The position numbers were made by a program, and so were the translations under genes. This document shows, in pieces, positions 47,593 through 61,639 of a stretch of 64,000 bases of DNA; the stretch's first letter is position 1; every line of letters starts with the position of its first letter. A model generated the notes under the pieces. That model was not told the DNA's origin and did no database searches. It saw only the letters and a program-made list of their open reading frames with translations. The stretch spans positions 84,651 to 148,650 of the forward strand of contig JASFHL010000001.1 in assembly GCA_050123235.1 (NCBI GenBank), in the 5' to 3' direction. The DNA comes from Candidatus Woesebacteria bacterium (GTDB lineage Bacteria; Patescibacteriota; Microgenomatia; UBA1400; PJMF01).

Positions 47593-48831
47593 ATGATAGA
47601 TGCCAGACCACCAGCAGTTCCTTCTGAAGCCCAAGAGCAAGAGAAGAAAAAAACTTTATCAGGTTTTGAATGGCTACATTTGCCACGTAATAAAGAAATA
47701 ATTGATTTTTTATTACAAAATAAAGAGCAAATTGTTTCCCTAGCTAAAGAAAAAATCAAAACAGATTATGATCAAGCCAAAGAATATCATCAGACCAGGC
47801 ATACAGAACTGGCAGTTAAGCAGATTTTGAAGCTCACAGAGGAAATGTTGAAAGCAGAGGGACTGGAACCAACAGAACATCAGGATGTCTTGGATATCGT
47901 GGAGATATGCGTGACCTATCATGATGCGATTATGAATCCAGGAGAGGCAGCAAAAGGAGCTAGTATTAGCCCAGAATTCAATAGTTATTTGTTTTTAAAA
48001 GATTTAATCCTCAGATCAATTAAAGATGACCAGATAGAAAAACCAAAAGTGACTAAATTAGATAAGCAAGAATTAATATCTCAAGAGTATGGAGAGGAAT
48101 ATCAACAGTTTTATTTCTTCCATGTTGATCTATTCACGAGATTGCGTAGAGCAATTGAAGCTACAGCCATTGATCTAGATCAAGCTATCCATCAACAAAC
48201 TATAGTCCAGTTTTCCAAAGTTCATCCAGATACTGCTAAGGATAGACTGGCTCAACTAGTCTGCACTGCTGATTTGGCGTATTTTGCTCTTTCACCAGTA
48301 GATGAAACATTAGAACTGTCACTCAGATATGCAATTGAGTTTTTTGATTTAAGAAAGAAAGGATCAGTTGCTAAAGCTGCAGAAGGGGGGCATAAACTAG
48401 ACAATTTAGAGCCTGTGATTGAATATCTAGAAGGCCAGGTTAAATATATGGAAAATTATACTTTTCCAGATTTACCGGATTTGCCTGCGGCAGTTGATGC
48501 TTTTAGCATGGAGGAATTTTTGAAGTTGTGGGAAATTCCCGTTGAAGATTATAGAGAGCAGATAGATGAGTTGGATGACGCACAATCCAGAACACTGAAG
48601 CACGATTTATTGCGTGCTGCCATGGATGATTTAGAAGGGGGTTGGGAGGCTCGTGATGAATCAGCAAAAAATCCTCAAATTTTAGCCACGATTAAGCAAG
48701 GCAAAACTCTAGACCGTCTTAGATTAGTCAAAGCTGATTATTATAGGCGAATGGCGGCTGATCTTAAGAAGAACGGCACAGAGTCAAAATATTACGCTGA
48801 AGTGGTAGCAGCCCTGAAGAAGATAGCTTAG
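47593..48831 (+). CDS. hypothetical protein (412 aa), possible HD-like motif
   Basis: ORF; contains YHDAIMNPGE (HD dipeptide) but metal-ligand pattern not verifiable by eye. Confidence 0.3.
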   Translation: MIDARPPAVPSEAQEQEKKKTLSGFEWLHLPRNKEIIDFLLQNKEQIVSLAKEKIKTDYDQAKEYHQTRHTELAVKQILKLTEEMLKAEGLEPTEHQDVLDIVEICVTYHDAIMNPGEAAKGASISPEFNSYLFLKDLILRSIKDDQIEKPKVTKLDKQELISQEYGEEYQQFYFFHVDLFTRLRRAIEATAIDLDQAIHQQTIVQFSKVHPDTAKDRLAQLVCTADLAYFALSPVDETLELSLRYAIEFFDLRKKGSVAKAAEGGHKLDNLEPVIEYLEGQVKYMENYTFPDLPDLPAAVDAFSMEEFLKLWEIPVEDYREQIDELDDAQSRTLKHDLLRAAMDDLEGGWEARDESAKNPQILATIKQGKTLDRLRLVKADYYRRMAADLKKNGTESKYYAEVVAALKKIA

Positions 48832-49879: not shown

Positions 49880-51136
49880 CTATTTATCTTTCATCATCTC
49901 AATCGCTTCTTCCACAGATAGTTGTTTTTGTTTACCACTAGTCATATTTTTTAAGCTCAGCAAATCTTTCTCAGCTTCTTCTTCACCAATGATTACTACC
50001 CAAGGGATATTTTTTTTGTCGGCGAGTTTAAATTGTTTGCTAAGTTTATCGAGAGCAGGGTAGACTTCAGTGTTAATGCCGGCTTGGCGAAGCTGATTAG
50101 CAAGTTTCAAAGAAGCAGCTTGGCTTTTTTCATCAAAAATAGTGATAAGAGCTTGGACGGCATTTGTATCAGCAGGAATCAAATCTAGTTTTTCAGCAGC
50201 CTCGACCATGCGGTCAAATCCAAAGGCAATTCCAGTAGCTGGCATATCAACACCACCCAGCTCGTTGATTAAATTGTCATAGCGGCCACCACCTCCACAC
50301 GAACCGACTGGATAATCAGGCAAGATTACTTCAAAAATCATGCCAGTGTAGTAATCTAAGCCGCGAGCCAAACTAGGAGTAAATTCCAGATCTTCTTTTT
50401 TAACCCCAAGATTAACGGCACTTTCTATAATTTGTCTTAAATTGTCTGACATTTGAGCTTTATCCACAGTTGTTAAAACTTGCTTGGCGCTATTTTCTGT
50501 TAAACCTTTTTTAACTAACTCTTCAATTACTTGTTGAGGTTTTAATTTATCTAATTTATCAATTGATTGGATAATAGAAAAGACATTGATTCTGTCTATA
50601 GCAAACGGCTTTAAAGTAGCCATCAAAGTTTGTCGATCATTAATTTTAAGTTTGATGTTTTTAAAACCTACATTTTTAAAAGCTTCATAAGTACAAGCTA
50701 GGATTTCCGCATCTGCCAATGGGGAACTACTGCCAAAAATGTCAATGTCACATTGGGTAAATTCACGATATCTACCTTTTTGAGGTTTGTCAGCACGGAA
50801 CACATTTTGGATTTCATAGCGTCTAAAATACTTAGGTAATTCATTTTGATATTGGGCTAAAACGCGAGCAGTCGGCACTGTTTGATCATATCTTAGACCA
50901 ATTTTTCGCCCCCCTCTGTCTTCGAAAGTATAAACCAGTTTGTCTGCTTCTTCACCGTATTTGCCCAATAATAAAGAAGCATACTCTAAAGTAGGCGTTT
51001 CCAAAGGCTCAAAGCCAAAGTTTTCAAAAGTTTCGATTACTTTTTTGATCACATAATCGCGTTTGCGTTTTTCTGCAGGCAAAAAATCACGAAAACCTTT
51101 TAATGTTTGAACGGATTGTTTAGTTTGTTTTGTCAT
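49880..51136 (-). CDS. hisS: histidyl-tRNA synthetase
   Basis: Class II motifs: LKGFRDFLP (motif 1 region), GLRYDQTVP, FRYE.., GGGRYDNL (motif 3), C-terminal anticodon-binding domain. Confidence 0.9.
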   Translation of the reverse strand: MTKQTKQSVQTLKGFRDFLPAEKRKRDYVIKKVIETFENFGFEPLETPTLEYASLLLGKYGEEADKLVYTFEDRGGRKIGLRYDQTVPTARVLAQYQNELPKYFRRYEIQNVFRADKPQKGRYREFTQCDIDIFGSSSPLADAEILACTYEAFKNVGFKNIKLKINDRQTLMATLKPFAIDRINVFSIIQSIDKLDKLKPQQVIEELVKKGLTENSAKQVLTTVDKAQMSDNLRQIIESAVNLGVKKEDLEFTPSLARGLDYYTGMIFEVILPDYPVGSCGGGGRYDNLINELGGVDMPATGIAFGFDRMVEAAEKLDLIPADTNAVQALITIFDEKSQAASLKLANQLRQAGINTEVYPALDKLSKQFKLADKKNIPWVVIIGEEEAEKDLLSLKNMTSGKQKQLSVEEAIEMMKDK

Positions 51137-51209
51137 AAGTTCCTTTTTCGCAATAATTTTATTATACGTTACAGTTTATGTAACTGTTAGCGTTTATTAT
51201 TCAAAATGT

Positions 51210-51276
51210 GGGGGCGTGTTGGTCAGTAATGGATCCGTCAAATCTAATTACAGGGGTTCGAATCCCCTCGCCTCCA
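51210..51276 (+). ncRNA. tRNA-like element lacking a D arm (possible tRNA pseudogene or tRNA-mimic ncRNA); anticodon-position triplet GUC
   Basis: 7-bp acceptor stem GGGGGCG/CGCCUCC, canonical T arm AGGGG-UUCGAAU-CCCCU, 9-bp extended anticodon-like stem with 7-nt loop CCGUCAA, followed by ACA and T7; antisense to flanking his genes. Confidence 0.4.
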
Positions 51277-51370
51277 CATTTTTTTGCTGTTGATTTTGCT
51301 TTAATTATTTGTTAAATTATTTTTAATTGACGGATCTATTACTGCAAGATTTAAAACTCCTGTAGTTAGA

Positions 51371-51399
51371 GAAAAATCGCTCGTAAGAGTGATTTTTTG
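51371..51399. terminator. bidirectional hairpin terminator at 3' end of his operon
   Basis: AATCGCTC-gtaa-GAGTGATT flanked by A6 (left) and T6 (right). Confidence 0.5.
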
Positions 51400-51432: not shown

Positions 51433-51711
51433 TTACTCCTTTTGTCTTTTTTTTAATTCTGTTAATACTTCCTCAAATTCAATGTTTTTTGCTGTGAGTA
51501 GCACTAAGCTGTGAAACCATAAATCCGCTGTTTCTTCAATTAATCTTTGCTTTGATTGATTCTTACTAGCAATTACAACTTCTGTAGCTTCTTCACCAAC
51601 TTTTTGAGCAATTGCATCAATTCCTCTAGCAAAAAGGGAAGAGACATAAGAACCTTTAGGCATAGTCTTTTGTCTTTGTTTAATAATGGTAGTTAATTTT
51701 TTTAGAATCAT
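51433..51711 (-). CDS. hisE: phosphoribosyl-ATP pyrophosphatase
   Basis: about 92 aa MazG-like; EEATEVVIA...ETADLWFHSLVLL typical of HisE. Confidence 0.8.
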   Translation of the reverse strand: MILKKLTTIIKQRQKTMPKGSYVSSLFARGIDAIAQKVGEEATEVVIASKNQSKQRLIEETADLWFHSLVLLTAKNIEFEEVLTELKKRQKE

Positions 51712-52730
51712 AATATTTGTTTAAAAAAGCAACTTTTATTATTGGTATGACAGATATTTTTACCAATGATTTTGCTTTGTATTAATAATGTATCATTATC
51801 ACAATCCAAAACTATCTTATTAACTTTCAATTTATTACCAGATGTTTCACCTTTCATCCATAGTTTTTTTTTTGATCGACTCCAAAACCAAGCATATCCA
51901 GTTTTGAGTGTCTTTTTAAGAGCTCGTTTATTCATATAAGCTAGCATTAATATTTCCTTGCTTGATTCTTCTTGAACAATGGCAGGAACCAAGCCTCCTT
52001 GTTTTTCAAAATCAACACTATCTTGATCATTAAGATAAAAAAGCCCGTCATAGAGAGCTTTGCCAACAATTACCGCCTCAGCACCAAGATCTATTAACTG
52101 CTTGATATCTTCTTTAGAAGCTATACCACCTGCCATGATGACAGGCATATTGATACTATTAATTAGTTTTTTAATGATTTTTAAATTTGGCCCTGTCTCA
52201 GTGCCATCTCTTAAAGTATCAGTGTAAATTAATCTTTTGACAGTTAGTTTTTCTAATTTTTGAGCTGTTTCTATGAGATTCAATTGTGTGTTTTTTAACC
52301 AGCCTTTTGACATCAACTTACTGTTTTTGGCATCTAGAGAAACAATGATTTGATCAGGGAAAACAGCTAATATTTTTTTTAATAACTCAATATTTTCTAA
52401 AGCAATGCTACCTAAAATGATTCGATTAACACCGAGTTGAATTAGTTTTTTAACGGTCTTGAAATCACGAATACCACCACCGACTTGAGTGGGAATAGAT
52501 ACAGTTTTGATGATATTTTTGATGATTTTTAAGTTTTGAACTTTTCCGACTTTGGCCCCGTCAAGATCCACGATGTGTAAGCTTTTCGCACCTTGATCTT
52601 GCCACTGTTTTGCGACTAATACTGGATCGCTGGCATAGACAGTTTTTTTGCTGAAATCACCTTGTTTTAATCTCACGCAGTTACCATTTTGGATATCAAT
52701 TGCTGGTATGATTTTAGTTAAATTTATCAT
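51708..52730 (-). CDS. hisA: bifunctional ProFAR isomerase (HisA) / phosphoribosyl-AMP cyclohydrolase (HisI) fusion
   Basis: N-terminal HisA barrel (IIPAIDIQNGNCVRLKQGD, HIVDLDGA, GGGIR); C-terminal HisI (GLVPAIVQE, LAYMN, FWSRSKKKLWMKGETSGN, DCDNDTLL, CHT..SCF). Confidence 0.85.
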   Translation of the reverse strand: MINLTKIIPAIDIQNGNCVRLKQGDFSKKTVYASDPVLVAKQWQDQGAKSLHIVDLDGAKVGKVQNLKIIKNIIKTVSIPTQVGGGIRDFKTVKKLIQLGVNRIILGSIALENIELLKKILAVFPDQIIVSLDAKNSKLMSKGWLKNTQLNLIETAQKLEKLTVKRLIYTDTLRDGTETGPNLKIIKKLINSINMPVIMAGGIASKEDIKQLIDLGAEAVIVGKALYDGLFYLNDQDSVDFEKQGGLVPAIVQEESSKEILMLAYMNKRALKKTLKTGYAWFWSRSKKKLWMKGETSGNKLKVNKIVLDCDNDTLLIQSKIIGKNICHTNNKSCFFKQIL

Positions 52731-54163
52731 CTGATTGAAATTCCATGATTTTTTAAATAATTTTTAAGATCAGTAATTTTCAATTTTTGCTTGTGAAATA
52801 AAGTAGCAGCCAATGCAGCATCAGCTTGGCCTTTAGTTAAAGCGTCAAGAAAGTCTTTTTTCTTACCAGCTCCACTGGAAGCAATAATGGGAATGTTAAC
52901 TTTTTTAGCTATGTTGCGTAGTAAGTCCAAATCATAACCCTTTTTAGTCCCATCTCGATCTATGGAGTTGACTAATAATTCGCCAGCACCTAGCGTTTCC
53001 ATTTTTTTAGCAAATTTAAGAGCATCAATGCCAGTCGCTTTTTTACCACTATTGATATATATTTCCCAGCTGTTTCTATTTTTTTTAGGATCAAGTGAAA
53101 TGACAATGCACTGTGAACCAAAACGTTGCGCAGCTTTTTTGACCAGATCAGGATTAGTGACAGCAGCAGAACCAATTGAGACCTTATCAGCGCCTGATAA
53201 AAGCAACTGATAAATATCATTTAAAGTTTTGATACCGCCACCCACAGAAAAGGGGATAGTGATATTTTTAGCAATTTTTTCTACTAGTTTGTAAAGTAGT
53301 CTACGTTTTTCAATAGTGGCAGTAATATCAAGAAACATTAATTCATCAATACCCATTTTGTCATAAAGCTGGGCAAGTTTTACTGGATCTCCAGCATCTT
53401 TAAGCTGTTTGTAATTAGTACCTTTGACTACTTTATTATTTTTAATATCCATGCAAGCAATGATTCTTTTGGCAAGTAAGGATTTGGCTGATTTTAAAGC
53501 AGTTAGTTCTTGCTCAAATCTGATCGGACTTGCTTTTCGTTCAGAAGGGATGGTGGCAGAATTTTCTAGTGCTTCAATGTCACAAAAATTTTTTAACATT
53601 TTTTGACCCAGTTCTCCTGATTTTTCTGGGTGAAATTGCACGCCATAAAAATTATTTTTTTTAATTACTGAAGCAAAGTTGCTACCATATTGTGTTTGCC
53701 CAATGATATTTTTTTTTAGAGGATCACAATAGTAAGAATTCACAAAGTAAAAATAACTATTGTTGGGAATATTTTTAAACAAAGGCTCATTTTTTATTTG
53801 CTTAACTTGGTTCCAACCAATCTGCGGCACCACTAAGTTATTTTTTTTAGGAAATTTTTTTACCTTGCCATCAATAATATCCAAACACTTTGTGTTATCT
53901 TCCTCAGAATAAGAAAGTAAAAGTTGCATGCCAAGACAAATACCTAAAAAAGGGGCTCTTATATCTTGAATTAGCTGCTCAAGCTTGAGTTTTTTAAGTT
54001 CTGGCATCGCCTGACCAGCACGACCTACACCAGGGAAGATAACTTTGCTGGCTTTTTTAATCATAGTAGGATCAGCTGTCACAATGTATTTAGCTCCAAT
54101 TTTGTCTAAAGCATTTGTTACTGAACCTATGTTGCCGGATTTGTAGTTGATGATGGTGATCAT
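52727..54163 (-). CDS. hisF: imidazole glycerol phosphate synthase, fused glutaminase (HisH) and cyclase (HisF) subunits
   Basis: N-terminal class I GATase (FPGVG, catalytic Cys in ICLGMQLL, FHPEKS); C-terminal HisF barrel (IACMDIK..VKGTNY, DELMFLDITA, GGGI). Confidence 0.85.
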   Translation of the reverse strand: MITIINYKSGNIGSVTNALDKIGAKYIVTADPTMIKKASKVIFPGVGRAGQAMPELKKLKLEQLIQDIRAPFLGICLGMQLLLSYSEEDNTKCLDIIDGKVKKFPKKNNLVVPQIGWNQVKQIKNEPLFKNIPNNSYFYFVNSYYCDPLKKNIIGQTQYGSNFASVIKKNNFYGVQFHPEKSGELGQKMLKNFCDIEALENSATIPSERKASPIRFEQELTALKSAKSLLAKRIIACMDIKNNKVVKGTNYKQLKDAGDPVKLAQLYDKMGIDELMFLDITATIEKRRLLYKLVEKIAKNITIPFSVGGGIKTLNDIYQLLLSGADKVSIGSAAVTNPDLVKKAAQRFGSQCIVISLDPKKNRNSWEIYINSGKKATGIDALKFAKKMETLGAGELLVNSIDRDGTKKGYDLDLLRNIAKKVNIPIIASSGAGKKKDFLDALTKGQADAALAATLFHKQKLKITDLKNYLKNHGISIR

Positions 54164-54227
54164 AGTTTCAATGAGATGTTTATTTAAGTTTTTTTTGTCT
54201 TTCTAGAGATTGTAGATTGTCTTTTTT

Positions 54228-54980
54228 TCATAAGAGTAGTTCCCATAAGGTTTCTATATTAATAATTTGAATATTCCCTAGTTTTTTTTCTCCTATATAA
54301 ATACAAGGCATTTGTGCTCTTTTAGCAGCTTCAACATCACTAGAACTATCACCAATATAGATTGTATTTTTGAGAGCTAATTTTTCAGATACCATCAACA
54401 ATGGCTCTGGCTCTGGTTTTCCGTTTTTATAATCTTCCATAGCAATAACAGTATTAAACAAATCAAGGATATTGTTATTTTTTAAGGCATAAATGGCTTC
54501 AAACTTTGGTCTGCCAGTAGCGATTCCCATTTTTTTATATTTCTTTTTAAGATTATCAAGAACTGATTTTGGAATTAACAATTTTTCTGTGTTAATTAGG
54601 CTCTCTATTTTTTTAACAGGAGCTTTTTTGCTATAACATTTTTGATATAAACTTGAACCTAGATAATAACTTTGGAATACAGCAACTATATTTTGGTATA
54701 GTTTGTCCTTGCGATACTTTTCTAAATTACTAATAAACTCTGGTATATCAAATTTTGAATTTTGTTTTTTTAAAATCAAAGCATAACTAGCATCCCAATC
54801 GTTATTTAAACCCACAACTTGTTTGATTGCTAAGACATCTAACTCTGTCACTGTTTTATCAGGACAAAAGTATTGGACAGTTTTTAAGATACAAAGACGA
54901 TATGACTTACTAACATCAATCAGTACACCATCCATGTCCCAGATTAATCCATCTAGTTGGTCAAAGTTAATTTTCTGCAT
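54228..54980 (-). CDS. HAD-IA family hydrolase (candidate histidinol-phosphatase)
   Basis: Motif I DMDGVL, motif IV GDSSSD; embedded in his operon between hisC and hisHF. Confidence 0.55.
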   Translation of the reverse strand: MQKINFDQLDGLIWDMDGVLIDVSKSYRLCILKTVQYFCPDKTVTELDVLAIKQVVGLNNDWDASYALILKKQNSKFDIPEFISNLEKYRKDKLYQNIVAVFQSYYLGSSLYQKCYSKKAPVKKIESLINTEKLLIPKSVLDNLKKKYKKMGIATGRPKFEAIYALKNNNILDLFNTVIAMEDYKNGKPEPEPLLMVSEKLALKNTIYIGDSSSDVEAAKRAQMPCIYIGEKKLGNIQIINIETLWELLL

Positions 54981-56070
54981 AGAAATTTTTAATTTTTTCA
55001 AATAATAAATCGTTGTCTTTTTCTGCTCGAATACCAATACGAACAGCACTGTTAAGATTTTTTTTGCCACTTACATTTTTAATAAACAAACCCTCTCTTT
55101 TTAATTGTTCTACTAACTCAGCTGTTTTACCTGGTAGATAAAGACAAAAGAAGTTAGCTTCACTGGGGATAACATTAAAATTATTTTCAAGATATTTTTT
55201 AGTTACTCTAGAGCGTTCTTGTTTAATTTTATTAGTAAATTTCTCAATAAATTTCAAACCTTTGGTAGTTAAAACTGATAGGGCAATCTCTTGAGAGAAA
55301 TAACTAACTCCCATTGGAAATCTAATGGAATCAAATATTTTAGTCAGCTGTTTATTAGCAATTAAGTAACCAACTCTAGCTCCGGCAATACAAGCAAATT
55401 TTGAAAAACTTCTGAGAATTACAACATTGTTATATTTGAGAGCCAAATCGTTGAAATTATCTTCACAAAATTCTCTGTAAGCTTCATCAATGAGAATAAT
55501 AGAGTTAGTTTTTTGGGCAAGATATTCAATATCCAATTTGTCTAAACTAGTACCAGTAGGATTATTAGGTGAACAAAGAAAAATGATTTTTGTTTTGTGT
55601 TTTTTAGCTGTATTAATGATTTTTTGAGTATCAAGTTGCCAGTTTTTTTTCAGTGGCACTTCAAGCACCTCACCACCATTAATTGCAGTTTGCACTTTAT
55701 ACATACCATAGGTGGGAGGACAAATAATAACATTATCATTTTGATTTAAAAAAGTTTTACAAATCACATCAATAGCTTCATCACCACTATTGGTGAGAGT
55801 GACCATGTTTTTGGGTAATTGCTCGTATTGGGTGACGGCTTTTTTAAGTCTAAAATAGCCAGGATCTTTATAATCATTAACTGCTCTTTCTTGATCTATG
55901 ATTTGTATAAAATCAGGCCAAATATTCGGAATTTGAGCTGGAGTGGCAGTATCAAATCTAACAATTTTTTTTAATTGATATTTTTGACCATATTTTTCTT
56001 CTTCAAGCTCCCATACATAGGGTTTAAAATTTTTTAACTGGTCTCTGAGTAAAAAATTAATATTTTTCAT
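54967..56070 (-). CDS. hisC: histidinol-phosphate aminotransferase
   Basis: Class II aminotransferase fold; NPTGT and PLP-lysine region SFSKFACIAGARVGY. Confidence 0.85.
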   Translation of the reverse strand: MKNINFLLRDQLKNFKPYVWELEEEKYGQKYQLKKIVRFDTATPAQIPNIWPDFIQIIDQERAVNDYKDPGYFRLKKAVTQYEQLPKNMVTLTNSGDEAIDVICKTFLNQNDNVIICPPTYGMYKVQTAINGGEVLEVPLKKNWQLDTQKIINTAKKHKTKIIFLCSPNNPTGTSLDKLDIEYLAQKTNSIILIDEAYREFCEDNFNDLALKYNNVVILRSFSKFACIAGARVGYLIANKQLTKIFDSIRFPMGVSYFSQEIALSVLTTKGLKFIEKFTNKIKQERSRVTKKYLENNFNVIPSEANFFCLYLPGKTAELVEQLKREGLFIKNVSGKKNLNSAVRIGIRAEKDNDLLFEKIKNFYAEN

Positions 56071-56079
56071 ATTTATTCT

Positions 56080-57378
56080 TTATTTTTCAAATCTTACTTG
56101 GCATGAATAAGCGTGAGCTGGTAATGCTTCTACTTGGGCAAAAGTGTTGATAGTATTTTTGATGTCTTTTAACCCCTTTTTACTAGCTTTCTGAAATTGA
56201 ATCAGGCGACCAAAGCTTTCTACACTTAGTGGGCCAAACATCTTGGCGCTTTGACCAGTAGGTAAGACGTGGTTAGCTCCTGTGGCATAATCACCACTAG
56301 CTTTGCAAGTCCAATTACCAATAAAAATAGAACCAGCATTAGTAATTTGTTTAGCTATTTGTAGGGCATTCTTAGTCATAATCTGTAAGTGTTCTGGAGC
56401 ATATTGATTGCTCAAATCAATGCTTGCTTCAAGATTATCAGTAACGATAATGGCTCCATAATTTTTAAGAGCAGAGCGAATAGTATTTTCACTAGCTAGT
56501 GTTGGCAAAATTCTTGCAATTTCTTTTTTAACTGACTCAGCTTGTTTCATAGAGGTAATAAGTAAAATAGCAGTTGAATCATCACCATGTTCGGCATCAG
56601 TAATTAAATCAGCAGCAACAAATCTATTATTGGCAGACTCATCTGCAATAATTAAATTTTCTGAAGGACCAGCAGGCATATCAATATCAATAGTAGGGAA
56701 GAGTAATAATTTAGCAGCAGTAACATATTGATTACCTGGGCCAACAATTTTATAGACTTTGGGAATTGATTCTGTTCCGTAAGCCATGGCAGCAATCGCC
56801 TGGGCACCGCCAACTTTAAAAACTTTTTTAATACCAAGTTTATTCGCAGTTATAATTACTTCCGGCGGCAATCTACCTTGTTGATTTGGTGGTACACAAA
56901 CAATAATGTCATTGCAGCCAGCAATTTGAGCTGGAATAGCAGTCATTAGTAAGGATGAAGGGTAATTAGCTTTACCGCCTGGCACATAGAGACCCACTCT
57001 TTCTATCGCTTGCCAGGAACGCCAGACTTGTATATCTCGTTGCATGACTAAAACTTTTTTTTCTTTAATTAGTTTACTTTTTTGAGCTTGGTGAACTTTT
57101 TGAATGTTTTTTATTGCTTGGTTAAGGGCAGGTATAAAATTTTTATCTATTTGTTGGTAAGCTTCTTTAATTTCACTTTTACTTAATAGAAGATCGTTAA
57201 TTGGAATTTGTCTTTGTTGGTATTTTTTTAGAATAGCTTGATCGCCTTCTTGTCGAACGCTTGCCACTTTGGGACGAATTTGTGCTATTATTTGCCAGTA
57301 ATCAGCAGATGATCTTTCAAAGACTTGCTTTAATTGTTTCTTACTGATAGTTTTTGTTGTATAGATTTTGATTGGCAT
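56080..57378 (-). CDS. hisD: histidinol dehydrogenase
   Basis: 432 aa; NAD/zinc-binding HisD core (GPGNQYVTAAK, DxxAGPSE, EHL) in his operon context. Confidence 0.88.
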   Translation of the reverse strand: MPIKIYTTKTISKKQLKQVFERSSADYWQIIAQIRPKVASVRQEGDQAILKKYQQRQIPINDLLLSKSEIKEAYQQIDKNFIPALNQAIKNIQKVHQAQKSKLIKEKKVLVMQRDIQVWRSWQAIERVGLYVPGGKANYPSSLLMTAIPAQIAGCNDIIVCVPPNQQGRLPPEVIITANKLGIKKVFKVGGAQAIAAMAYGTESIPKVYKIVGPGNQYVTAAKLLLFPTIDIDMPAGPSENLIIADESANNRFVAADLITDAEHGDDSTAILLITSMKQAESVKKEIARILPTLASENTIRSALKNYGAIIVTDNLEASIDLSNQYAPEHLQIMTKNALQIAKQITNAGSIFIGNWTCKASGDYATGANHVLPTGQSAKMFGPLSVESFGRLIQFQKASKKGLKDIKNTINTFAQVEALPAHAYSCQVRFEK

Positions 57379-57391
57379 TTTTTCCTTTTTT

Positions 57392-58270
57392 TTACAAAAT
57401 CATTTTTTCAATTGGTAAAACAATAATTCCTTCAGCCCCTACTTTTTTTAATCTTTCAACTGTTTCCCAAAAGACATCTTCTTTAATTACAGATTGAACG
57501 CTAACCCAAGGTTTTTTGGCTAAAAGTGAAAGAGTAGGAGATTTGAGTCCAGGAATGATTTTTTTCAATTTAGGTAAGATGTCTTCTGGCGCATTCATCA
57601 TGATATATTTATATCTTTGGGCAGATAAAACTCCTTTAAATCTGGTTAATAGTTGTTTGATAATTTTTGCCTTTTTTTCATCTTTTAGTGAGTCTGGATT
57701 GGCAATTAAAACTGCTTCTGATTTATAGATAGTTTCTAAAATGCGTAAATCATTTTGCGCTAAAGTGCTACCAGTAGAAACTAAATCAACAATAGCATCT
57801 GCTATTCCTAGAAGAGGAGCAGCTTCTACTGATCCACTGATTTCAATTAATTTGATTTTTATATTTTTTTCTTTAAAAAATTTTTTCGCGCTTTTGGGAT
57901 ATGAGCTTGCTATTTTAAGACCTTGCAAATCTGAGAGTTTCTTAATTTTAGAATCTTTTGCTACAGCTACTACTAATGAACAAAAACTAAATCTCAAATT
58001 AAGTAACTTTTTGATCTTTTTTCTTTTTTCATTAACTACATTTTGGCCAATAATACCTAAATCCACTATTCCCGTAGAAACATAATCAGTAATGTCATCG
58101 TCTCTGCTATAGATAATTTCTAAAGGGAAATTACGGCAATTAGAAAACAACTTACGATTGTAAGTTTCGAATTCCAAGCCCGCCAACTTTAAAAAAGCTA
58201 CTGTCTCATCAGTGAGGCGGCCAGATTTTTGGATAGCTAGTTTAATTTTATTGTTATTTAGTTTTGTCAT
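57392..58270 (-). CDS. hisG: ATP phosphoribosyltransferase (long form with regulatory domain)
   Basis: IKLAIQKSGRL N-terminus, DLVSTGSTL PRPP-binding signature, about 80-aa C-terminal regulatory domain. Confidence 0.85.
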   Translation of the reverse strand: MTKLNNNKIKLAIQKSGRLTDETVAFLKLAGLEFETYNRKLFSNCRNFPLEIIYSRDDDITDYVSTGIVDLGIIGQNVVNEKRKKIKKLLNLRFSFCSLVVAVAKDSKIKKLSDLQGLKIASSYPKSAKKFFKEKNIKIKLIEISGSVEAAPLLGIADAIVDLVSTGSTLAQNDLRILETIYKSEAVLIANPDSLKDEKKAKIIKQLLTRFKGVLSAQRYKYIMMNAPEDILPKLKKIIPGLKSPTLSLLAKKPWVSVQSVIKEDVFWETVERLKKVGAEGIIVLPIEKMIL

Positions 58271-58384
58271 ATAGCATTTTGCAGAATTAAATTCTACGGT
58301 TTTGAATAATTTTTAAGACTTTAGCAACGCCGAGGCGATTTTTTGTTGCCAGGCTAAGCCAAGTTCTAAATTTTCTAATTTTTG

Positions 58385-58459
58385 GGTGACTGACGGGATT
58401 CGCACCCGCGGCCTTCGCTTTCACAGAGCGACGCTCTAACTAACTGAGCTACAGCCACC
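58385..58459 (-). tRNA. tRNA-His (anticodon GTG) with genome-encoded G-1
   Basis: Cloverleaf: G-1 + GTGGCTG acceptor, D arm GCTC/GAGC, anticodon stem TCGCT/AGCGA with loop CTGTGAA, T arm GCGGG-TGCGAAT-CCCGT, C73 discriminator; CCA not encoded. Confidence 0.85.
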
Positions 58460-58582
58460 ATCTTTAATTTTTACTAGGGTTTGATTTTCAGATTTCCTTA
58501 AATCTCTAAACCCTATCAGATGTTTTAAATAAGCAGTTTCCAATTTTTTAATTTTGTGCGGCTCGTTTATATTAATAATAAG

Positions 58583-58607
58583 CACAAAAAACCCCCCGGC
58601 TGGGGGG
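58583..58607 (-). terminator. strong intrinsic terminator T2 (CCCCCC-AGCC-GGGGGG + U6) in his leader region
   Basis: Perfect 6-bp all-GC stem followed by U-run on the minus strand. Confidence 0.6.
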
Positions 58608-58626
58608 AGTGAAAAGTGTTTATTTA

Positions 58627-58655
58627 ACTAAAAAATCCGGCTTTGGGTCCGGATT
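58627..58655 (-). terminator. intrinsic terminator-like hairpin T1 (AAUCCGG-ACCCAAAG-CCGGAUU + U6) downstream of leader ORF
   Basis: 7-bp inverted repeat followed by U6 on the minus strand. Confidence 0.5.
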
Positions 58656-58684
58656 AATTTCACACAAAAATCACTAACCCCCTT

Positions 58685-58720
58685 TTAGGTGGTATGGTGA
58701 TGATGAGCTAATTGACTCAT
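58685..58720 (-). CDS. putative his operon leader peptide MSQLAHHHHTT (4 consecutive His codons)
   Basis: ATG AGT CAA TTA GCT CAT CAT CAC CAT ACC ACC TAA; lies between a consensus promoter and tandem terminators upstream of tRNA-His/hisG. Confidence 0.55.
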   Translation of the reverse strand: MSQLAHHHHTT

Positions 58721-58743
58721 GTTTTGTGTTTTCATAAATGATT

Positions 58744-58772
58744 ATTATATATAAGTTTTGTTGTGTGTCAAC
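58744..58772 (-). promoter_or_regulatory. sigma-70-like promoter TTGACA-N17-TATAAT driving the his leader
   Basis: Minus-strand TTGACA (58772-58767) and TATAAT (58749-58744), about 24 nt upstream of leader ATG. Confidence 0.5.
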
Positions 58773-58786
58773 TTTTAGCGACTTTT

Positions 58787-59779
58787 CTACAAAGCCAATT
58801 TTTTCCCATCAATCTTGATTATTGGCTTCAATGTTAGAGCATCTAAATGGATTGGCACATCAACTTCACCACCAATACAACTACTATTTCCAAAAGCAAT
58901 ATGAGCAGTTTTTAAAGCCTTTTCAGCTTCGATCATTTTGCCTAAAGGATTAGTCTTGGGGTTGGTACCAATCCCGATCTCAGCAATGTTAAACGCATCT
59001 GGGCCGATTTTTTTGAGTTTCTCTTCTAAGGCCTGAGCAAGTTGATGATTGTTTGACTCGCTTTCAAATTTGACAGCTAAGCCATTTTTAATAGTCACCT
59101 TGATTGGTTTTTTGAGTTTAAAATCAGCTAAAGCGCCATTGATTATCCAAGTTCCTTGAGAGCTGCCTTTAATTGGGGCAAAGAAAACTTCACCTGCGGG
59201 AAGATTACCAAGTTCGCCATTTTTTAGAATTCCGCCATCATTGAAAATAGCTTTTTGGCGAATAGCTGCACTGAAGTTTGTCTCTGATGGAGAACTAATA
59301 TGAATAGTGTTTGCTTTTTGGAGTTTGGCTTTTATTTCCTCGCCTAGTTTTTTAATTTTATGATAGTCAGTTGTCAGAGTGCGACGCATGATTTTGTAAT
59401 TAACTCCTGGCAAACTAGCACCACGATGATTGTTTCTTACCACTGCTTTGCCAGCTTTGCTGTGGGTAAGGGAGAATTTTGTATGGAGGATCGTAATGTT
59501 TGCCTGCGCGCAAGCCTGAACTACCTCATCAGGTGGTTCTTGGCCACTGTGAGTCATACCAGCCAAGACTATCATCTGCACTTTATCAGTGAGGGTTTTG
59601 GCAGTCTCGAACCAAATGGCAGCCTCTTTTTTATAAAATCTGATGTCTGTGACAATTAGGACATTATCATTCTTTTGGAAATTAAGGTTATTTTTGAGAA
59701 TTTTTTGACCTAATCTTAATTCTGCTGTTTGTAAGCGCAGCAAACTTTGATCAGCTGAAATTATTTTGTGAATTTTCAT
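58787..59779 (-). CDS. aminopeptidase, M29 (AmpS/PepS, thermophilic metalloprotease) family
   Basis: about 330 aa; overall pattern of M29 family including metal-ligand-containing regions (HTKFSLTH, IAEIGIGTN, HIAFG); assignment by similarity of pattern only. Confidence 0.55.
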   Translation of the reverse strand: MKIHKIISADQSLLRLQTAELRLGQKILKNNLNFQKNDNVLIVTDIRFYKKEAAIWFETAKTLTDKVQMIVLAGMTHSGQEPPDEVVQACAQANITILHTKFSLTHSKAGKAVVRNNHRGASLPGVNYKIMRRTLTTDYHKIKKLGEEIKAKLQKANTIHISSPSETNFSAAIRQKAIFNDGGILKNGELGNLPAGEVFFAPIKGSSQGTWIINGALADFKLKKPIKVTIKNGLAVKFESESNNHQLAQALEEKLKKIGPDAFNIAEIGIGTNPKTNPLGKMIEAEKALKTAHIAFGNSSCIGGEVDVPIHLDALTLKPIIKIDGKKLAL

Positions 59780-61373: not shown

Positions 61374-61444
61374 GGGCCAATAGTAAAACGGTATTACACA
61401 GCAGTCGCATTGCTGAAGTCCGGGTTCGATTCCCGGTTGGTCCA
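61374..61444 (+). tRNA. tRNA-Ala (anticodon CGC)
   Basis: Acceptor GGGCCAA/TTGGTCC with G3:U70 Ala identity pair, D arm GTAA/TTAC, anticodon stem CAGCA/TGCTG loop GTCGCAT, T arm CCGGG-TTCGATT-CCCGG, A73. Confidence 0.8.
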
Positions 61445-61639
61445 CATAGGAATAAGATGCAAAGCTACGAGCAGTTAGATTTTCTTTTAAAGAAAATAAA
61501 ATTTAAGGAAAGCGTAATTGATCATAAATGGAAAATAATTGAATATTAGTTGCAGTATTGATATAATTGTTTATATTAGAGTTGATAAATACTCTTGGGT
61601 ATTATGAGAGTATCTTTTTAATATAAATTTTTTAAAATT

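What the first reader, a model, noticed from the sequence alone, without database searches (positions are those of the whole stretch)
51205..51290. D-armless tRNA-like element between hisS and the his operon, antisense to both
On the plus strand, a 67-nt sequence folds into a tRNA-like structure. It has a 7-bp acceptor stem (GGGGGCG/CGCCUCC), a 9-nt linker with no D stem, a 9-bp extended anticodon-type stem with a 7-nt loop CCGUCAA (GUC at the anticodon position, i.e. Asp-like), a 5-nt variable region, and a textbook T arm (AGGGG-UUCGAAU-CCCCU). It ends in ACA followed by T7. It sits in the 296-bp gap between the histidyl-tRNA synthetase gene and the end of the his operon, on the opposite strand. 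It is not a standard tRNA because it has no D arm and no encoded CCA. It is too small to be a tmRNA, although the acceptor, linker and T-arm arrangement resembles a tmRNA tRNA-like domain. Candidate roles are a tRNA pseudogene or integration-site remnant, a tRNA-mimic regulatory RNA, or an unusual minimal tRNA.
Basis: seen in the sequence. Interest (0 to 1): 0.7.

Follow-up and report, generated by a model that had tools for sequence, protein, structure and literature searches.

The report
Compact alanine-type tRNA with antisense partner
Between hisS and the histidine operon of this candidate-phyla-radiation bacterium lies a real 67-nt miniature tRNA gene with almost no D arm, of a kind otherwise found here mostly on phage DNA and missed by tRNA finders, and a small neighbouring transcript seems built to base-pair with its anticodon arm.

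Summary
Window 51210-51276 (+) folds as described (z = -4.7) and passes Rfam tRNA narrowly (36.2 bits, cut-off 29). ARAGORN misses it.

It is not a tmRNA domain and not a simple integration fragment. It has the alanine marks G3:U70 and A73, a 2-bp mini D hairpin (UG-UUGGU-CA), a 9-bp anticodon helix that uses up the variable region, the loop CCGUCAA (C33, GUC) and a normal T arm.

A covariance model built from 17 similar RNAs, without the window, scores it 70.8 bits with no indels. The window's true tRNAs score 25-30, and about 70 ordinary bacterial tRNAs score 39.5 or less. Those 17 come from viral or metagenome contigs, plus one Acidobacteriota chromosome. On the 19-sequence alignment, 17 of 23 pairs show changes on both sides.

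At 51327-51344 lies an 18-nt complement of the anticodon loop plus the 5' stem strand, with promoter-like hexamers before it and a terminator after it. Five other alanine-type tRNAs have the same layout, each complement matching its own tRNA. Among 1,767 tRNAs called by ARAGORN, 8 others have a complement of 13 nt or more.

Relatives lack the element, which sits at a rearrangement junction. Best reading: a functional compact tRNA-like RNA paired with an anti-tRNA transcript. Expression, charging and function are untested.

The parts
51130..51157 (+). Promoter-like site upstream of the tRNA-like gene (TTGTCA-16-AATAAT, 10 of 12). It would give a leader of about 45 nt.
   Evidence: This is a consensus match only. 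Its -35 hexamer overlaps the hisS start codon.
51203..51282 (+). Extended 14-bp terminal helix. Leader AAAAUGU pairs with trailer ACAUUUU on top of the 7-bp acceptor stem.
   Evidence: repeat I2, 14 nt, 93% complementary. (MFE fold).
51210..51276 (+). Compact 67-nt tRNA-like gene. Acceptor stem 51210-16 with 51269-75 (G3.U70); mini D hairpin 51217-25; anticodon helix 51226-51; loop 51235-41 (CCGUCAA, anticodon GUC at 51237-39); T arm 51252-68; discriminator A at 51276.
   Evidence: Model R2, built without the window, gives 70.8 bits with all 67 positions aligned and no indels.
51217..51225 (+). Mini D arm UG-UUGGU-CA: a 2-bp stem with a 5-nt loop carrying the GG that normally contacts the T loop.
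   Evidence: In the family alignment both pairs are formed in 18 of 18 sequences that have letters there, with pair types GC, CG, UA, AU and GU.
51279..51285 (+). T7 run right after the acceptor helix. It may be a weak terminator or a processing context.
51290..51318 (+). Promoter-like hexamers for the partner transcript (TTGATT-17-TAAATT, 8 of 12). They place the transcription start at about 51326-51327.
   Evidence: On its own this match is not significant in A+T-rich DNA (null fraction 0.11). Its position matches that of strong promoters in the five analogous loci.
51327..51344 (+). 18-nt segment UUGACGGAUCUAUUACUG, complementary to 51224-51241: the last two nucleotides (CA) of the mini D hairpin, the 5' strand of the anticodon helix and the whole anticodon loop. 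17 of 18 positions are Watson-Crick and one is G.U.
   Evidence: I1.; 0 of 2000 shuffles reach 16 nt; duplex -30.6 kcal/mol against a shuffled mean of -11.2.
51326..51398 (+). Putative partner small RNA of about 73 nt. Its 5' end is the anti-anticodon-arm segment and its 3' end is the terminator hairpin.
   Evidence: Inferred. Transcription has not been shown.
51372..51398 (.). Hairpin AAAAAUCGCUC-GUAA-GAGUGAUUUUU with T/A runs on both sides. It looks like a terminator for the partner RNA on the plus strand and for the his operon on the minus strand.
   Evidence: I3.. The consensus scan did not list it.
49880..51136 (-). hisS, histidyl-tRNA synthetase (context only).
51433..51711 (-). hisE, the last gene of the his operon (context only).

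Best explanation
The element is a gene on the plus strand for a compact tRNA-like RNA. It belongs to a recurrent family that is not in Rfam as its own model and that ARAGORN mostly fails to call.

Inferred life of the RNA:
- It is transcribed on its own.
- Its ends are cut like those of a tRNA (RNase P at G51210, 3' trimming after A51276).
- CCA is added afterwards, as it must be for the two canonical tRNAs in this window.

Inferred fold: an L shape in which acceptor and T stems stack (12 bp). A 9-bp helix, made from the anticodon stem plus pairing of the former D 3' strand with the former variable region, replaces the anticodon/D stack. A 2-bp mini D hairpin presents GG to the T loop.

With G3.U70, A73 and G1-G4 it carries the alanine identity set, so AlaRS is the predicted charging enzyme, whatever the GUC anticodon says.

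Its anticodon loop and the 5' strand of its anticodon helix are complementary to the 5' end of a second small transcript encoded about 50 nt downstream (about 51326-51398). I propose that the two RNAs form a loop-initiated antisense duplex, so that one controls the other. Most likely the partner masks or unfolds the anticodon arm and keeps a potentially mistranslating Ala-tRNA(GUC) silent.

What is shown: the structure, membership of the family, the covariation, and the recurrence and cognate specificity of the complementary partner with its promoter and terminator.

What is inferred: expression, processing, alanylation, which RNA regulates which, and the biological purpose.
For: Structure and strand.

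Family:
- Model R1 found 19 members at 42 bits or more in about 2.3 Mb of held loci.
- On their alignment 94.7% of cells pair, 17 of 23 pairs show changes on both sides, and the covariation score is 0.681 against 0.164 in shuffles (0 of 500 reach it). Slid registers give 47-62% paired.
- Model R2, built from 17 members without the window, scores the window element 70.8 bits (E = 4e-12) with no indels. The window's tRNA-Ala scores 29.6 and its tRNA-His 25.1. About 70 ordinary bacterial tRNAs score 39.5 or less.
- The Rfam tRNA model gives the opposite ranking: 36.2 for the element against 60.6 and 67 for the true tRNAs.

Partner:
- An inverted complement of the 5' anticodon stem plus loop lies at +43 to +51 nt in the window, L342, L120, L332 and L320, and at -98 in L368.
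- Among 1,767 distinct tRNAs that ARAGORN called in the same loci, 10 have a complement of 13 nt or more within 150 nt, and two of those 10 are L320 and L332. None is near the window's own tRNA-His or tRNA-Ala.
- In five of the six loci a sigma-70 promoter ends 5-7 nt before the complement: 12/12 in L332, 11/12 in L342, 10/12 in L320 and L368, 8/12 in L120. Null fractions are 0.012 or less.
- A hairpin with a T run follows at +54 to +73 in four of the six loci.
- Cognate duplexes are -28 to -45 kcal/mol. Each tRNA pairs better with its own partner than with the other five.

Shared 3' context: all three tRNA(-like) genes in the window have N73 followed by CA.
Against: - No orthologue was found. 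The nearest relatives have no such spacer upstream of hisS, so conservation of this particular locus is unproven. The two assemblies that contain it are identical.
- The genome-collection scan was truncated by tRNA-Tyr matches. The metagenome scan returned only distant analogues.
- Every collection pattern forced GGGG...CUCCA and a consensus T loop. The alanine identity of the 'family' is therefore partly an effect of how it was collected.
- Alignment A4 was fitted to the model, which inflates the pairing counts.
- In the window itself the partner promoter is weak (8 of 12, null fraction 0.11).
- Only 4 of the 19 compact members have the partner, plus L332 and L320. It is not a defining feature of the family.
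- C33 in place of the near-universal U33, and the reduced D arm, argue against efficient decoding.
- The partner is formally an inverted partial duplicate of the tRNA's 5' half. In L342 and L120 the similarity extends into the mini D arm, so it could have arisen as a recombination by-product.
- There are no expression data.
Confidence: 0.5

Rival explanations
1. It is a decaying tRNA pseudogene or recombination scar. On this view a tRNA gene lost the 5' strand of its D stem in the rearrangement that moved the his operon next to hisS. The inverted 18-mer is debris from the same event, for example an integrase crossover at the anticodon loop. Nothing functional is made.
For: - The element is absent from relatives and sits exactly at a synteny break: L327 has his operon-M29-hisS, while the window has M29-tRNAHis-his operon-element-hisS.
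- ARAGORN rejects it and the Rfam score is marginal.
- It has C33.
- tRNA gene fragments produced by mobile-element integration are common and are often miscalled as tRNAs (PMC9897764).
- The boundary of the inverted copy lies at the anticodon loop, a known integrase crossover site.
Against: - All 23 pairs are intact and the T loop is consensus. G+C is 54% in a spacer of 27%.
- Integration fragments keep only the 3' part. Here both acceptor strands and both anticodon-helix strands pair.
- There is no direct repeat of the element in the window.
- The orphaned D 3' strand pairs perfectly with the former variable region.
- The same unusual architecture recurs with compensatory changes in unrelated sequences, and a model built without the window scores it 70.8 bits.
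- A scar does not explain why strong promoters sit 5-7 nt before the complement in five other loci.
Confidence: 0.2
2. It is simply a working minimal tRNA used in translation. It would read GAY codons, inserting Asp or, given G3:U70, Ala. On this view it was acquired from a phage or mobile element, and the downstream complement has no regulatory role.
For: - Most family members have 7-nt loops of the form CU-NNN-RA, with anticodons for rare codons or stop codons: CCU, UAU, UCU, UCC, CUA, UUA.
- Phage contigs also carry compact tRNAs with other acceptor types.
- Normal-cloverleaf phage tRNAs with the same loop CCGUCAA and a G3:U70/A73 acceptor exist (L332, L333). They lie among phage genes.
- The extended helix keeps the canonical 9-10 stacked layers.
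Against: - C33 and the near-absence of a D stem should impair function on a bacterial ribosome and with EF-Tu. D-armless tRNAs are documented only in mitochondria with adapted factors (PMC7609411; abstracts).
- Ala insertion at Asp codons would be harmful.
- A73 does not match the AspRS identity set, which uses G73 (my knowledge of E. coli, T. thermophilus and yeast tRNA-Asp identity).
- The non-random partner remains unexplained.
Confidence: 0.15
3. It is a CDS-less mini-tmRNA: a tRNA-like domain only, charged with Ala, that works with SmpB on stalled ribosomes or interferes with the host tmRNA, as reported for phage DS6A.
For: - It has G3:U70 and A73, a D region without a real stem, one long helix in place of the anticodon arm, and is about 65 nt long.
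- CDS-less tmRNAs of about 65 nt are known in jakobid mitochondria, two plastids and phage DS6A (PMC11915505).
Against: - Phage tRNA-like-domain-only RNAs in my loci score 56-65 bits on Rfam tmRNA and carry GG(A/U)UUCGA(C/U). The window element has UUGGUCAGUAA instead.
- The only tmRNA-type match listed for it is a 9.9-bit partial hit to tmRNA_permuted; its best Rfam match is the tRNA model. ARAGORN finds no tmRNA.
- Its loop looks like an anticodon loop.
Confidence: 0.03
4. It is a cis-acting structure in the minus-strand hisS leader or his-operon trailer, for example a tRNA mimic that autoregulates HisRS or a T-box-like sensor.
For: - It lies in the 296-nt region upstream of hisS and downstream of the his operon.
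- The minus strand of this region also folds well (z = -4.7).
Against: - No T-box or other leader family matches, even at E up to 10.
- Two G.U pairs become A.C mismatches on the minus strand, which folds 5.4 kcal/mol worse.
- The T-loop consensus reads correctly only on the plus strand.
- The predicted hisS promoters (51190 to 51161 and 51184 to 51156) lie between the element and hisS, so the hisS mRNA may not contain it.
- It has none of the histidine identity marks (G-1, C73, GUG).
- Relatives have hisS without any such leader.
Confidence: 0.05

Closest known systems
Canonical bacterial tRNA (Rfam RF00005), specifically tRNA-Ala by acceptor identity
   Same: 7-bp acceptor stem with G1-G4, G3.U70 and A73. 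5-bp T stem with loop UUCGAAU. 7-nt anticodon-type loop. GG in the D region. The same CCA-less 3' context as the window's true tRNAs. Passes the Rfam cut-off.
   Different: The D stem is reduced to 2 bp with no spacer at positions 8-9. There is no variable loop, because those bases pair to extend the anticodon helix to 9 bp. It has C33. Its anticodon is GUC, not an alanine anticodon. It scores 36 bits against 61-67 for true tRNAs, and ARAGORN does not call it.
D-armless mitochondrial tRNAs (e.g. mammalian mt-tRNA-Ser(AGY), nematode mt-tRNAs)
   Same: The D stem is lost, a short connector takes its place, and the rest of the molecule compensates so that the acceptor-to-anticodon distance can be kept (PMC7609411).
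   Different: Those are organellar, A+U-rich and degenerate, often with aberrant T loops, and they depend on adapted EF-Tu and synthetases. This one is bacterial or phage-associated, with G+C-rich stems and a textbook T arm and GG. The review read describes D-armless tRNAs only in mitochondria, and the abstract of PMC11551756 says all known bacterial tRNAs are canonical.
tRNA-like domain of tmRNA and CDS-less tmRNAs (phage DS6A, jakobid mitochondria, Mallomonadaceae plastids)
   Same: Alanine identity (G3.U70), no real D stem, one long helix between the D region and the T arm, about 65 nt, and found on phages.
   Different: It lacks the conserved GGnUUCGAC/P2 signature. It is not matched by the Rfam tmRNA model, whereas phage CDS-less forms score 56-65 bits. 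It has an anticodon-like 7-nt loop.
RNase P-processed phage antisense RNAs: P4 CI RNA and P1/P7 C4 RNA
   Same: A small, stable, structured RNA encoded on a mobile element, with a loop complementary to a target encoded a short distance away in the same region. The ends of these RNAs are made by tRNA-processing enzymes (PMC5499578, and my knowledge of Forti 1995 and Hartmann 1995).
   Different: CI and C4 are hairpin-like and lack a T loop. Their targets lie inside the operon they regulate. There is no Rfam C4 match here. Here the regulator, or the target, is a full tRNA-like molecule with aminoacylation marks, and the complement sits at the very 5' end of its own short transcript.
tRNA gene fragments left by mobile-element integration (attL/attR remnants)
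   Same: A low-scoring tRNA-like call at a junction of rearranged DNA. The partial copy ends at the anticodon loop (PMC9897764).
   Different: Integration fragments are direct repeats of the 3' part of a full tRNA located elsewhere. Here the gene is complete in both strands of every helix, the partial copy is of the 5' half and is inverted, and it is preceded by a promoter in the analogous loci.

Membership tests
Canonical tRNA (Rfam RF00005 / ARAGORN cloverleaf) | Score at or above the curated Rfam gathering cut-off | tested here: met
   36.2 bits against a cut-off of 29, model positions 1-71.
Canonical tRNA (Rfam RF00005 / ARAGORN cloverleaf) | D arm with a 3-4 bp stem, preceded by nucleotides 8-9 | tested here: not met
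   Only a 2-bp stem (U-A, G-C) directly after the acceptor stem. The D region is 10 nt against 15 in the model. ARAGORN makes no call.
Canonical tRNA (Rfam RF00005 / ARAGORN cloverleaf) | 7-nt anticodon loop with U33 and a purine at 37 | tested here: inconclusive
   The loop CCGUCAA has 7 nt with A37, but C33. C33 with the same loop recurs in L332 and L333, and C33 alone in L368.
Canonical tRNA (Rfam RF00005 / ARAGORN cloverleaf) | T arm with a 5-bp stem and UUCRANY loop; 7-bp acceptor stem; discriminator base | tested here: met
   AGGGG-UUCGAAU-CCCCU; GGGGGCG/CGCCUCC; A73.
Canonical tRNA (Rfam RF00005 / ARAGORN cloverleaf) | Processed, CCA-tailed, aminoacylated and used on the ribosome | not testable with these tools
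   No expression or biochemical data are available.
Compact alanine-type tRNA family defined here (models R1, R2) | High score on a covariance model built without the query, clearly above ordinary tRNAs | tested here: met
   R2 gives 70.8 bits, 67 of 67 positions, no indels. The window's true tRNAs score 29.6 and 25.1. About 70 bacterial tRNAs score 39.5 or less.
Compact alanine-type tRNA family defined here (models R1, R2) | Shared architecture supported by covariation: 2-bp mini D hairpin with a UGG loop, 8-10 bp anticodon helix with a bulge on the 3' side, no variable loop | tested here: met
   94.7% of cells paired; 17 of 23 pairs changed on both sides; mini D pairs formed in 18 of 18 sequences; 0 of 500 shuffles reach the score. 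Caveat: the alignment was fitted to the model, and the sequences were collected with patterns that fixed GGGG...CUCCA.
Compact alanine-type tRNA family defined here (models R1, R2) | Adjacent cognate complement of the anticodon arm, with its own promoter and terminator (present in a subset) | tested here: met
   The 18-nt complement lies at +51, with a terminator at +66 from the complement start. The promoter match is weak in the window (8 of 12) but strong in five analogous loci.
tmRNA / CDS-less tmRNA tRNA-like domain | Alanine identity pair G3.U70 | tested here: met
   G51212 pairs with U51273.
tmRNA / CDS-less tmRNA tRNA-like domain | Conserved D-loop/P2 signature (GGnUUCGAC) and a match to tmRNA covariance models | tested here: not met
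   The sequence here is UUGGUCAGUAA. The only tmRNA-type match listed is a 9.9-bit partial hit to tmRNA_permuted, and the best Rfam match is tRNA. Phage CDS-less tmRNAs score 56-65 bits on RF00023. ARAGORN finds no tmRNA.
tmRNA / CDS-less tmRNA tRNA-like domain | Acts together with SmpB | not tested
   smpB was not looked for across the whole window, and binding cannot be tested here.
tRNA fragment from mobile-element integration | Only the 3' portion matches a real tRNA; the 5' portion is unrelated sequence | tested here: not met
   The 5' strands of the acceptor and anticodon helices pair 7 of 7 and 9 of 9.
tRNA fragment from mobile-element integration | Direct repeat of the fragment, or its full-length parent, at the other end of an island, usually with an integrase | tested here: inconclusive
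   No second copy exists in the 64-kb window. The rest of the genome could not be searched. Not all ORFs in the window were checked for an integrase.
T-box / aminoacyl-tRNA synthetase leader | Match to the T-box model, or a structure on the hisS (minus) strand | tested here: not met
   No such match at E up to 10. The minus-strand fold is worse.
P4 CI / P1-P7 C4 antisense RNAs | Hairpin-like RNase P substrate without a T loop; match to the Rfam C4 model | tested here: not met
   The element has a full T arm, and there is no C4 match. It resembles these RNAs only in logic: a structured RNA with a nearby complementary target.

The most novel reading that the evidence does not exclude
The tRNA and its neighbour are a two-RNA module of a kind not described so far. 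One half is an alanine-accepting tRNA carrying a non-alanine anticodon (here GUC). It would put Ala at Asp codons, or at rare or stop codons in other family members. The other half is a cognate 'anti-tRNA' small RNA, encoded about 45 nt downstream, that base-pairs with the anticodon loop and the 5' stem strand and holds the tRNA in check. The module would be carried by phages and mobile elements, and in this case by a candidate-phyla-radiation bacterium. It would act as a toxin/antitoxin-like switch or a translational recoding switch in which the toxin or effector is a tRNA.
Probability: 0.15. Interest if true: 0.92.

Novelty: new variant of a known kind. Interest (0 to 1): 0.72.

Why it matters
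Bacterial and phage tRNAs are taken to be uniformly cloverleaf. D-armless forms are textbook oddities of animal mitochondria. This locus led to a set of at least 19 compact tRNA-like genes of 66-70 nt. They have a 2-bp D hairpin, alanine identity marks and many different anticodons, including stop-codon readers. ARAGORN was run on loci carrying 10 of the 18 other members and called one of them (L316). Rfam's gathering threshold was tried on three members besides the window (L326, L321, L213) and reported none of them.

A different 67-nt alanine-type tRNA-like gene, found in passing, is unannotated in the cultured E. coli phage HK639. It scores only 34 bits on the family model and is not one of the 19.

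If these RNAs are functional, three things follow:
- tRNA gene counts for phages, and possibly for candidate-phyla-radiation bacteria, are incomplete.
- Bacterial ribosomes, EF-Tu and processing enzymes would have to tolerate a fold thought to need adapted partners.
- Alanine-charged tRNAs with non-alanine anticodons would be a natural source of programmed missense or suppression.

The paired complementary transcript, if real, would be a way of regulating a tRNA directly through its anticodon arm. It is readily testable, because at least one analogous cassette (L332) has a consensus E. coli-type promoter.

Tried and rejected
1. Orthologues by synteny. HisS relatives at 71-72% identity (L002, L003) and a HisF-I relative at 54% (L327) have no such spacer or element. 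The only other contig carrying this HisS is 100% identical.

2. Collection scans.
- The first loose patterns were swamped by internal matches in ordinary tRNAs and by tRNA-Tyr.
- The metagenome scan with a UUGGUCA-specific pattern gave 6 distant analogues and no close homologue.

3. BLAST.
- Against phage records, only generic T-arm matches came back.
- Within the window there is no second copy.

4. tmRNA reading: rejected.

5. T-box or hisS leader reading: rejected.

6. Link to the group I introns known in Patescibacteria tRNA-Asp (PMC13011429): the element has no intron, so this is not relevant.

7. AcrIIIA1 tRNA-fragment paper: irrelevant.

8. MAFFT alignment of family members misaligned the stems. 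It was replaced by alignment to a covariance model.

9. Looking for a functional neighbour. The 412-aa ORF at 47593-48831 and the small ORFs near tRNA-Ala have no informative hits in Pfam, NCBIfam, PHROGs or PADLOC; the only hits were weak matches to PHROG families of unknown function. Neighbours of family members are heterogeneous: an IS1595 transposase, TnpB, a portal protein, a SocA/Panacea-domain protein, methylases. No conserved protein partner emerged.

10. DNA inversion switch. I checked by eye whether inverting the segment between the two repeat arms would give an alternative tRNA. The inverted junction would give only a 4-5 bp acceptor stem and no T arm, so I did not pursue it.

11. 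Literature searches for D-armless bacterial or phage tRNAs, for G3:U70 tRNAs with foreign anticodons, and for small RNAs complementary to anticodon arms found no description of such a family or module. The library is incomplete, so this is absence of evidence only.
Full report
**1. The observation**

Window 51210-51276 (+) reads GGGGGCG UGUUGGUCA GUAAUGGAU CCGUCAA AUCU-A-AUUAC AGGGG UUCGAAU CCCCU CGCCUCC A. It is followed by CA and seven T.

With its leader and trailer, the 80-nt stretch gives -31.5 kcal/mol, z = -4.69, and no shuffle out of 200 folds as well.
- Rfam's tRNA model matches it end to end at 36.2 bits (cut-off 29), with a shortened D region. ARAGORN does not call it.
- The flanking genes are hisS (49880-51136, minus) and hisE (51433-51711, minus), preceded by fused hisF-hisI and hisH-hisA genes. 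The gap is 296 bp.
- The plus strand is the structured one. It folds at -23.5 against -18.1 kcal/mol, because two G.U pairs become A.C mismatches on the minus strand.
- The element is 54% G+C in a spacer that is otherwise 27%. The window's true tRNAs are 53-60%.

- A 9-bp anticodon helix leaves no room for a variable loop.
- The acceptor stem carries G3.U70, G1-G4 and A73, the alanine identity set (this reading rests on my knowledge of AlaRS identity).
- Position 33 is C, not U.
- Leader and trailer extend the acceptor helix to 14 bp.
- The missing CCA is normal here. tRNA-His (58384-58458) and tRNA-Ala(CGC) (61374-61445) also lack it, and all three genes have N73 followed by CA.

**2. Organism and locus history**

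HisS homologues place the window in Patescibacteria, with names such as Woesebacteria and Pacebacteria.

- A second assembly of the same population is 100% identical.
- Relatives with 71-72% identical HisS have other genes abutting hisS.
- A relative with the same fused his genes (L327) has hisB-hisHA-hisFI-hisE-M29 peptidase-hisS-EamA-L31-RF1, tightly packed.
- The window has M29 - tRNA-His - hisG...hisE - [spacer with the element] - hisS - EamA.

So the element sits at a lineage-specific rearrangement junction. I could not find an orthologue. It is single-copy in the window.

**3. What it is not**

- It is not a tmRNA domain. CDS-less tmRNAs of about 65 nt are known (PMC11915505), and I found such RNAs in phage tRNA arrays. 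They score 56-65 bits on Rfam tmRNA and carry GG(A/U)UUCGA(C/U). The window element does neither.
- It is not a T-box or other known leader.
- It is not the usual integration fragment (PMC9897764). Both strands of every helix are present and paired.

**4. A family**

Pattern scans of viral, genome and metagenome collections turned up other short RNAs with G3.U70/A73 acceptors. All the patterns fixed GGGG...CUCCA and a consensus T loop, which is an important bias.

- Two of them, L213 (an Acidobacteriota chromosome) and L120 (a viral contig), have exactly the window's layout.
- A covariance model seeded with the window and L213 found 19 members at 42 bits or more in about 2.3 Mb of held loci.
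- On their alignment 94.7% of cells pair and 17 of 23 pairs change on both sides. The covariation score is 0.681 against 0.164 in shuffles (0 of 500 reach it), and slid registers give 47-62% pairing.
Both pairs form in 18 of 18 sequences, with pair types GC, CG, UA, AU and GU.
- The anticodon helix is a 5-bp outer stem plus a 3-4 bp inner stem, with a small bulge on the 3' side. It uses the former D 3' strand and the former variable region, which keeps about 9-10 stacked layers.

Membership test: model R2, built from 17 members without the window, scores the window element 70.8 bits with no indels. The window's true tRNAs score 29.6 and 25.1. About 70 ordinary bacterial tRNAs score 39.5 or less. 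The Rfam tRNA model ranks them the other way round.

Anticodons in the family are GUC, CCA, CCU, UAU, CUA, UUA, UCU, UCC, CUG and UCG.
- GUC with an alanine-type acceptor recurs in L108 and L320 (both with a reduced D arm).
- It also occurs in the normal-cloverleaf phage tRNAs L332 and L333, which share the window's exact loop CCGUCAA, including C33.

ARAGORN was run on loci carrying 10 of the 18 other members and called one. A different compact alanine-type gene is unannotated in E. coli phage HK639 and in a RefSeq E. coli genome. Compact tRNAs with other acceptor types also exist on phage contigs, so the link between this fold and alanine identity is not established.

The review read (PMC7609411) describes D-armless tRNAs only in mitochondria. 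The abstract of PMC11551756 states that all known bacterial tRNAs are canonical.

**5. The partner**

The repeat finder showed that 51224-51250 is complementary to 51318-51344.

- The core is 18 nt at 51327-51344. It is complementary to the last two nucleotides of the mini D hairpin, the 5' strand of the anticodon helix and all seven loop bases. There is one G.U, which would be a mismatch on the other strand.
- None of 2000 shuffles reaches 16 nt.
- The same feature lies at +48 (L342, 17 nt), +46 (L120, 13 nt), +45 (L332, 14 nt) and +43 (L320, 15 nt). In L368 it lies upstream at -98 (15 nt).
- Among 1,767 distinct ARAGORN tRNAs from the same loci, 10 have a complement of 13 nt or more within 150 nt, and two of those are L320 and L332. 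The window's own tRNA-His and tRNA-Ala have none.

Promoters and terminators:
- In the spacer before the complement there is a sigma-70 promoter with 16-17 nt spacing whose -10 box ends 5-7 nt before the complement.
- The matches are TTGACA-17-TATAAT (12/12) in L332, TTGACG-17-TATAAT in L342, TTGACA-17-TACGAT in L320, TTGACA-16-GATACT in L368 and TGGACT-17-TAGGAT in L120.
- Null fractions are 0.0000-0.012. In the A+T-rich window the match is TTGATT-17-TAAATT (8/12, null fraction 0.11).
- A hairpin with a T run follows 54-73 nt after the complement start in four loci, the window included (51372-51398).

Pairing energies: cognate tRNA-partner duplexes are -28 to -45 kcal/mol, well below shuffled partners. 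Each tRNA prefers its own partner over the other five. In L120 and L320 the complementarity runs on into the mini D hairpin and acceptor strand.

The partner is therefore formally an inverted, partly decayed copy of the tRNA's 5' half, transcribed so as to give its complement. A pure DNA scar would not explain the promoter placement. Only 4 of the 19 compact members, plus L332 and L320, have a partner.

**6. Mechanism**

Shown:
- the structure and the strand;
- family membership and covariation;
- a cognate complementary segment with promoter and terminator features that recurs.

Inferred:
- The gene is transcribed, perhaps from the 10/12 promoter at 51130-51157.
- The transcript is processed like a tRNA and CCA is added.
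- It is charged by AlaRS because of G3.U70 and A73.
- Its anticodon arm pairs with the 5' end of a transcript of about 73 nt (about 51326-51398), starting at the loop and spreading into the stem.

I commit to the reading that the partner masks the anticodon arm of a potentially mistranslating Ala-tRNA(GUC). I hold this with modest confidence. The reverse reading, in which the tRNA-like RNA acts as an antisense regulator like P4 CI or P1 C4 RNA, is also open.

Nothing ties the element to histidine. Its position is best explained by the rearrangement. The neighbours of family members are phage and transposon genes.

**7. Rivals**

- Decaying pseudogene or scar: 0.2.
- Plain decoding minimal tRNA: 0.15.
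- hisS leader: 0.05.
- Mini-tmRNA: 0.03.

**8. Limits**

- There are no expression data and no orthologue.
- The rest of the genome could not be searched.
- The genome scan was truncated.
- Family collection was biased towards alanine-type acceptors and consensus T loops.
- The alignment was fitted to the model.
- The literature library is incomplete.

**9. Verdict**

This is a real, strand-specific, tRNA-derived gene with an unusual fold, and the fold recurs with compensatory changes elsewhere. It is a new variant of a known kind. A possibly new regulatory pairing is attached to it, and that pairing deserves experimental testing.

Noticed in passing
window 51168-51184: Palindrome GTTACA-gttta-TGTAAC between the hisS start codon and the tRNA-like gene. 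It overlaps the predicted minus-strand hisS promoters (51190 to 51161 and 51184 to 51156) and lies just downstream of the plus-strand promoter at 51130-51157, so it looks like an operator.
   Followed up: no
window 51372-51398: A hairpin flanked by an A run and a T run looks like a terminator on both strands: for the his operon on the minus strand and for the putative partner RNA on the plus strand. The consensus terminator scan did not list it.
   Followed up: partly
window 51433-59779: A histidine gene cluster: M29 peptidase, tRNA-His directly upstream of hisG, then hisD, hisC, a HAD phosphatase, fused hisH-hisA, fused hisF-hisI, hisE and finally hisS. The order is rearranged relative to relative L327 (his operon-M29-hisS). 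The closest HisF-I homologues found were only 54% and 47% identical.
   Followed up: partly
window 51276-51279, 58380-58384, 61444-61448: All three tRNA(-like) genes in the window lack an encoded CCA and have the discriminator followed by CA. The element and tRNA-Ala both read ...CC-A-CAU. This may be a shared 3'-processing signal.
   Followed up: no
window 61374-61445: A tRNA-Ala with the G+C-rich anticodon CGC in a genome of 35% G+C. It is flanked by three small ORFs with no family assignment; the only hit was a weak match of the 135-aa ORF to a PHROG of unknown function. Its D stem is GUAA/UUAC, the same four base pairs that extend the anticodon helix of the compact element.
   Followed up: no
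window 47593-48831 (+): A 412-aa ORF with no hit in Pfam, NCBIfam, PHROGs or PADLOC. It is inserted between the EamA and L31 genes and is absent from relatives L002 and L327.
   Followed up: partly
L067 10530-10597, L075 4359-4426, L098 4468-4533, L298 978-1045: CDS-less tmRNA genes of 59-68 nt, consisting of the tRNA-like domain plus one hairpin. Two of the four (L075, L298) lie beside tRNA genes. They score 56-65 bits on Rfam tmRNA with the whole mRNA-like part deleted. About a dozen such sequences appeared among the short alanine-type hits from viral contigs.
   Followed up: partly
L371 2501-2570 (= NC_016158.1 33694-33763, minus strand), and L265 with 16 further IMG/VR loci: An unannotated 67-nt alanine-type tRNA-like gene (GAU anticodon-like loop, 3-bp D stem, encoded CCA) in the pL operon of E. 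coli phage HK639, just after putL. It is also unannotated in one RefSeq E. coli chromosome.
   Followed up: partly
L364, L277, L334 (CUA); L316, L313, L356 (UUA): Viral contigs carry tRNAs with alanine-type acceptors (G3.U70, A73) and amber or ochre suppressor anticodons, several with reduced D arms. AlaRS ignores the anticodon, so these could insert Ala at stop codons.
   Followed up: no
L342 563-1826; L213 1957-3196: Two family members sit next to transposase genes. L342 is 60 nt from a divergent TnpB (IS605 OrfB/Cas12f-like) gene. L213 is about 230 nt from an IS1595-family transposase gene.
   Followed up: no
L216 525-592: A Saccharibacteria genome, also in the candidate phyla radiation, has a 68-nt alanine-type tRNA-like gene with a 3-bp D stem, an encoded CCA and a UAU-type loop. 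ARAGORN misses it. It scores 46.6 bits on R2.
   Followed up: partly
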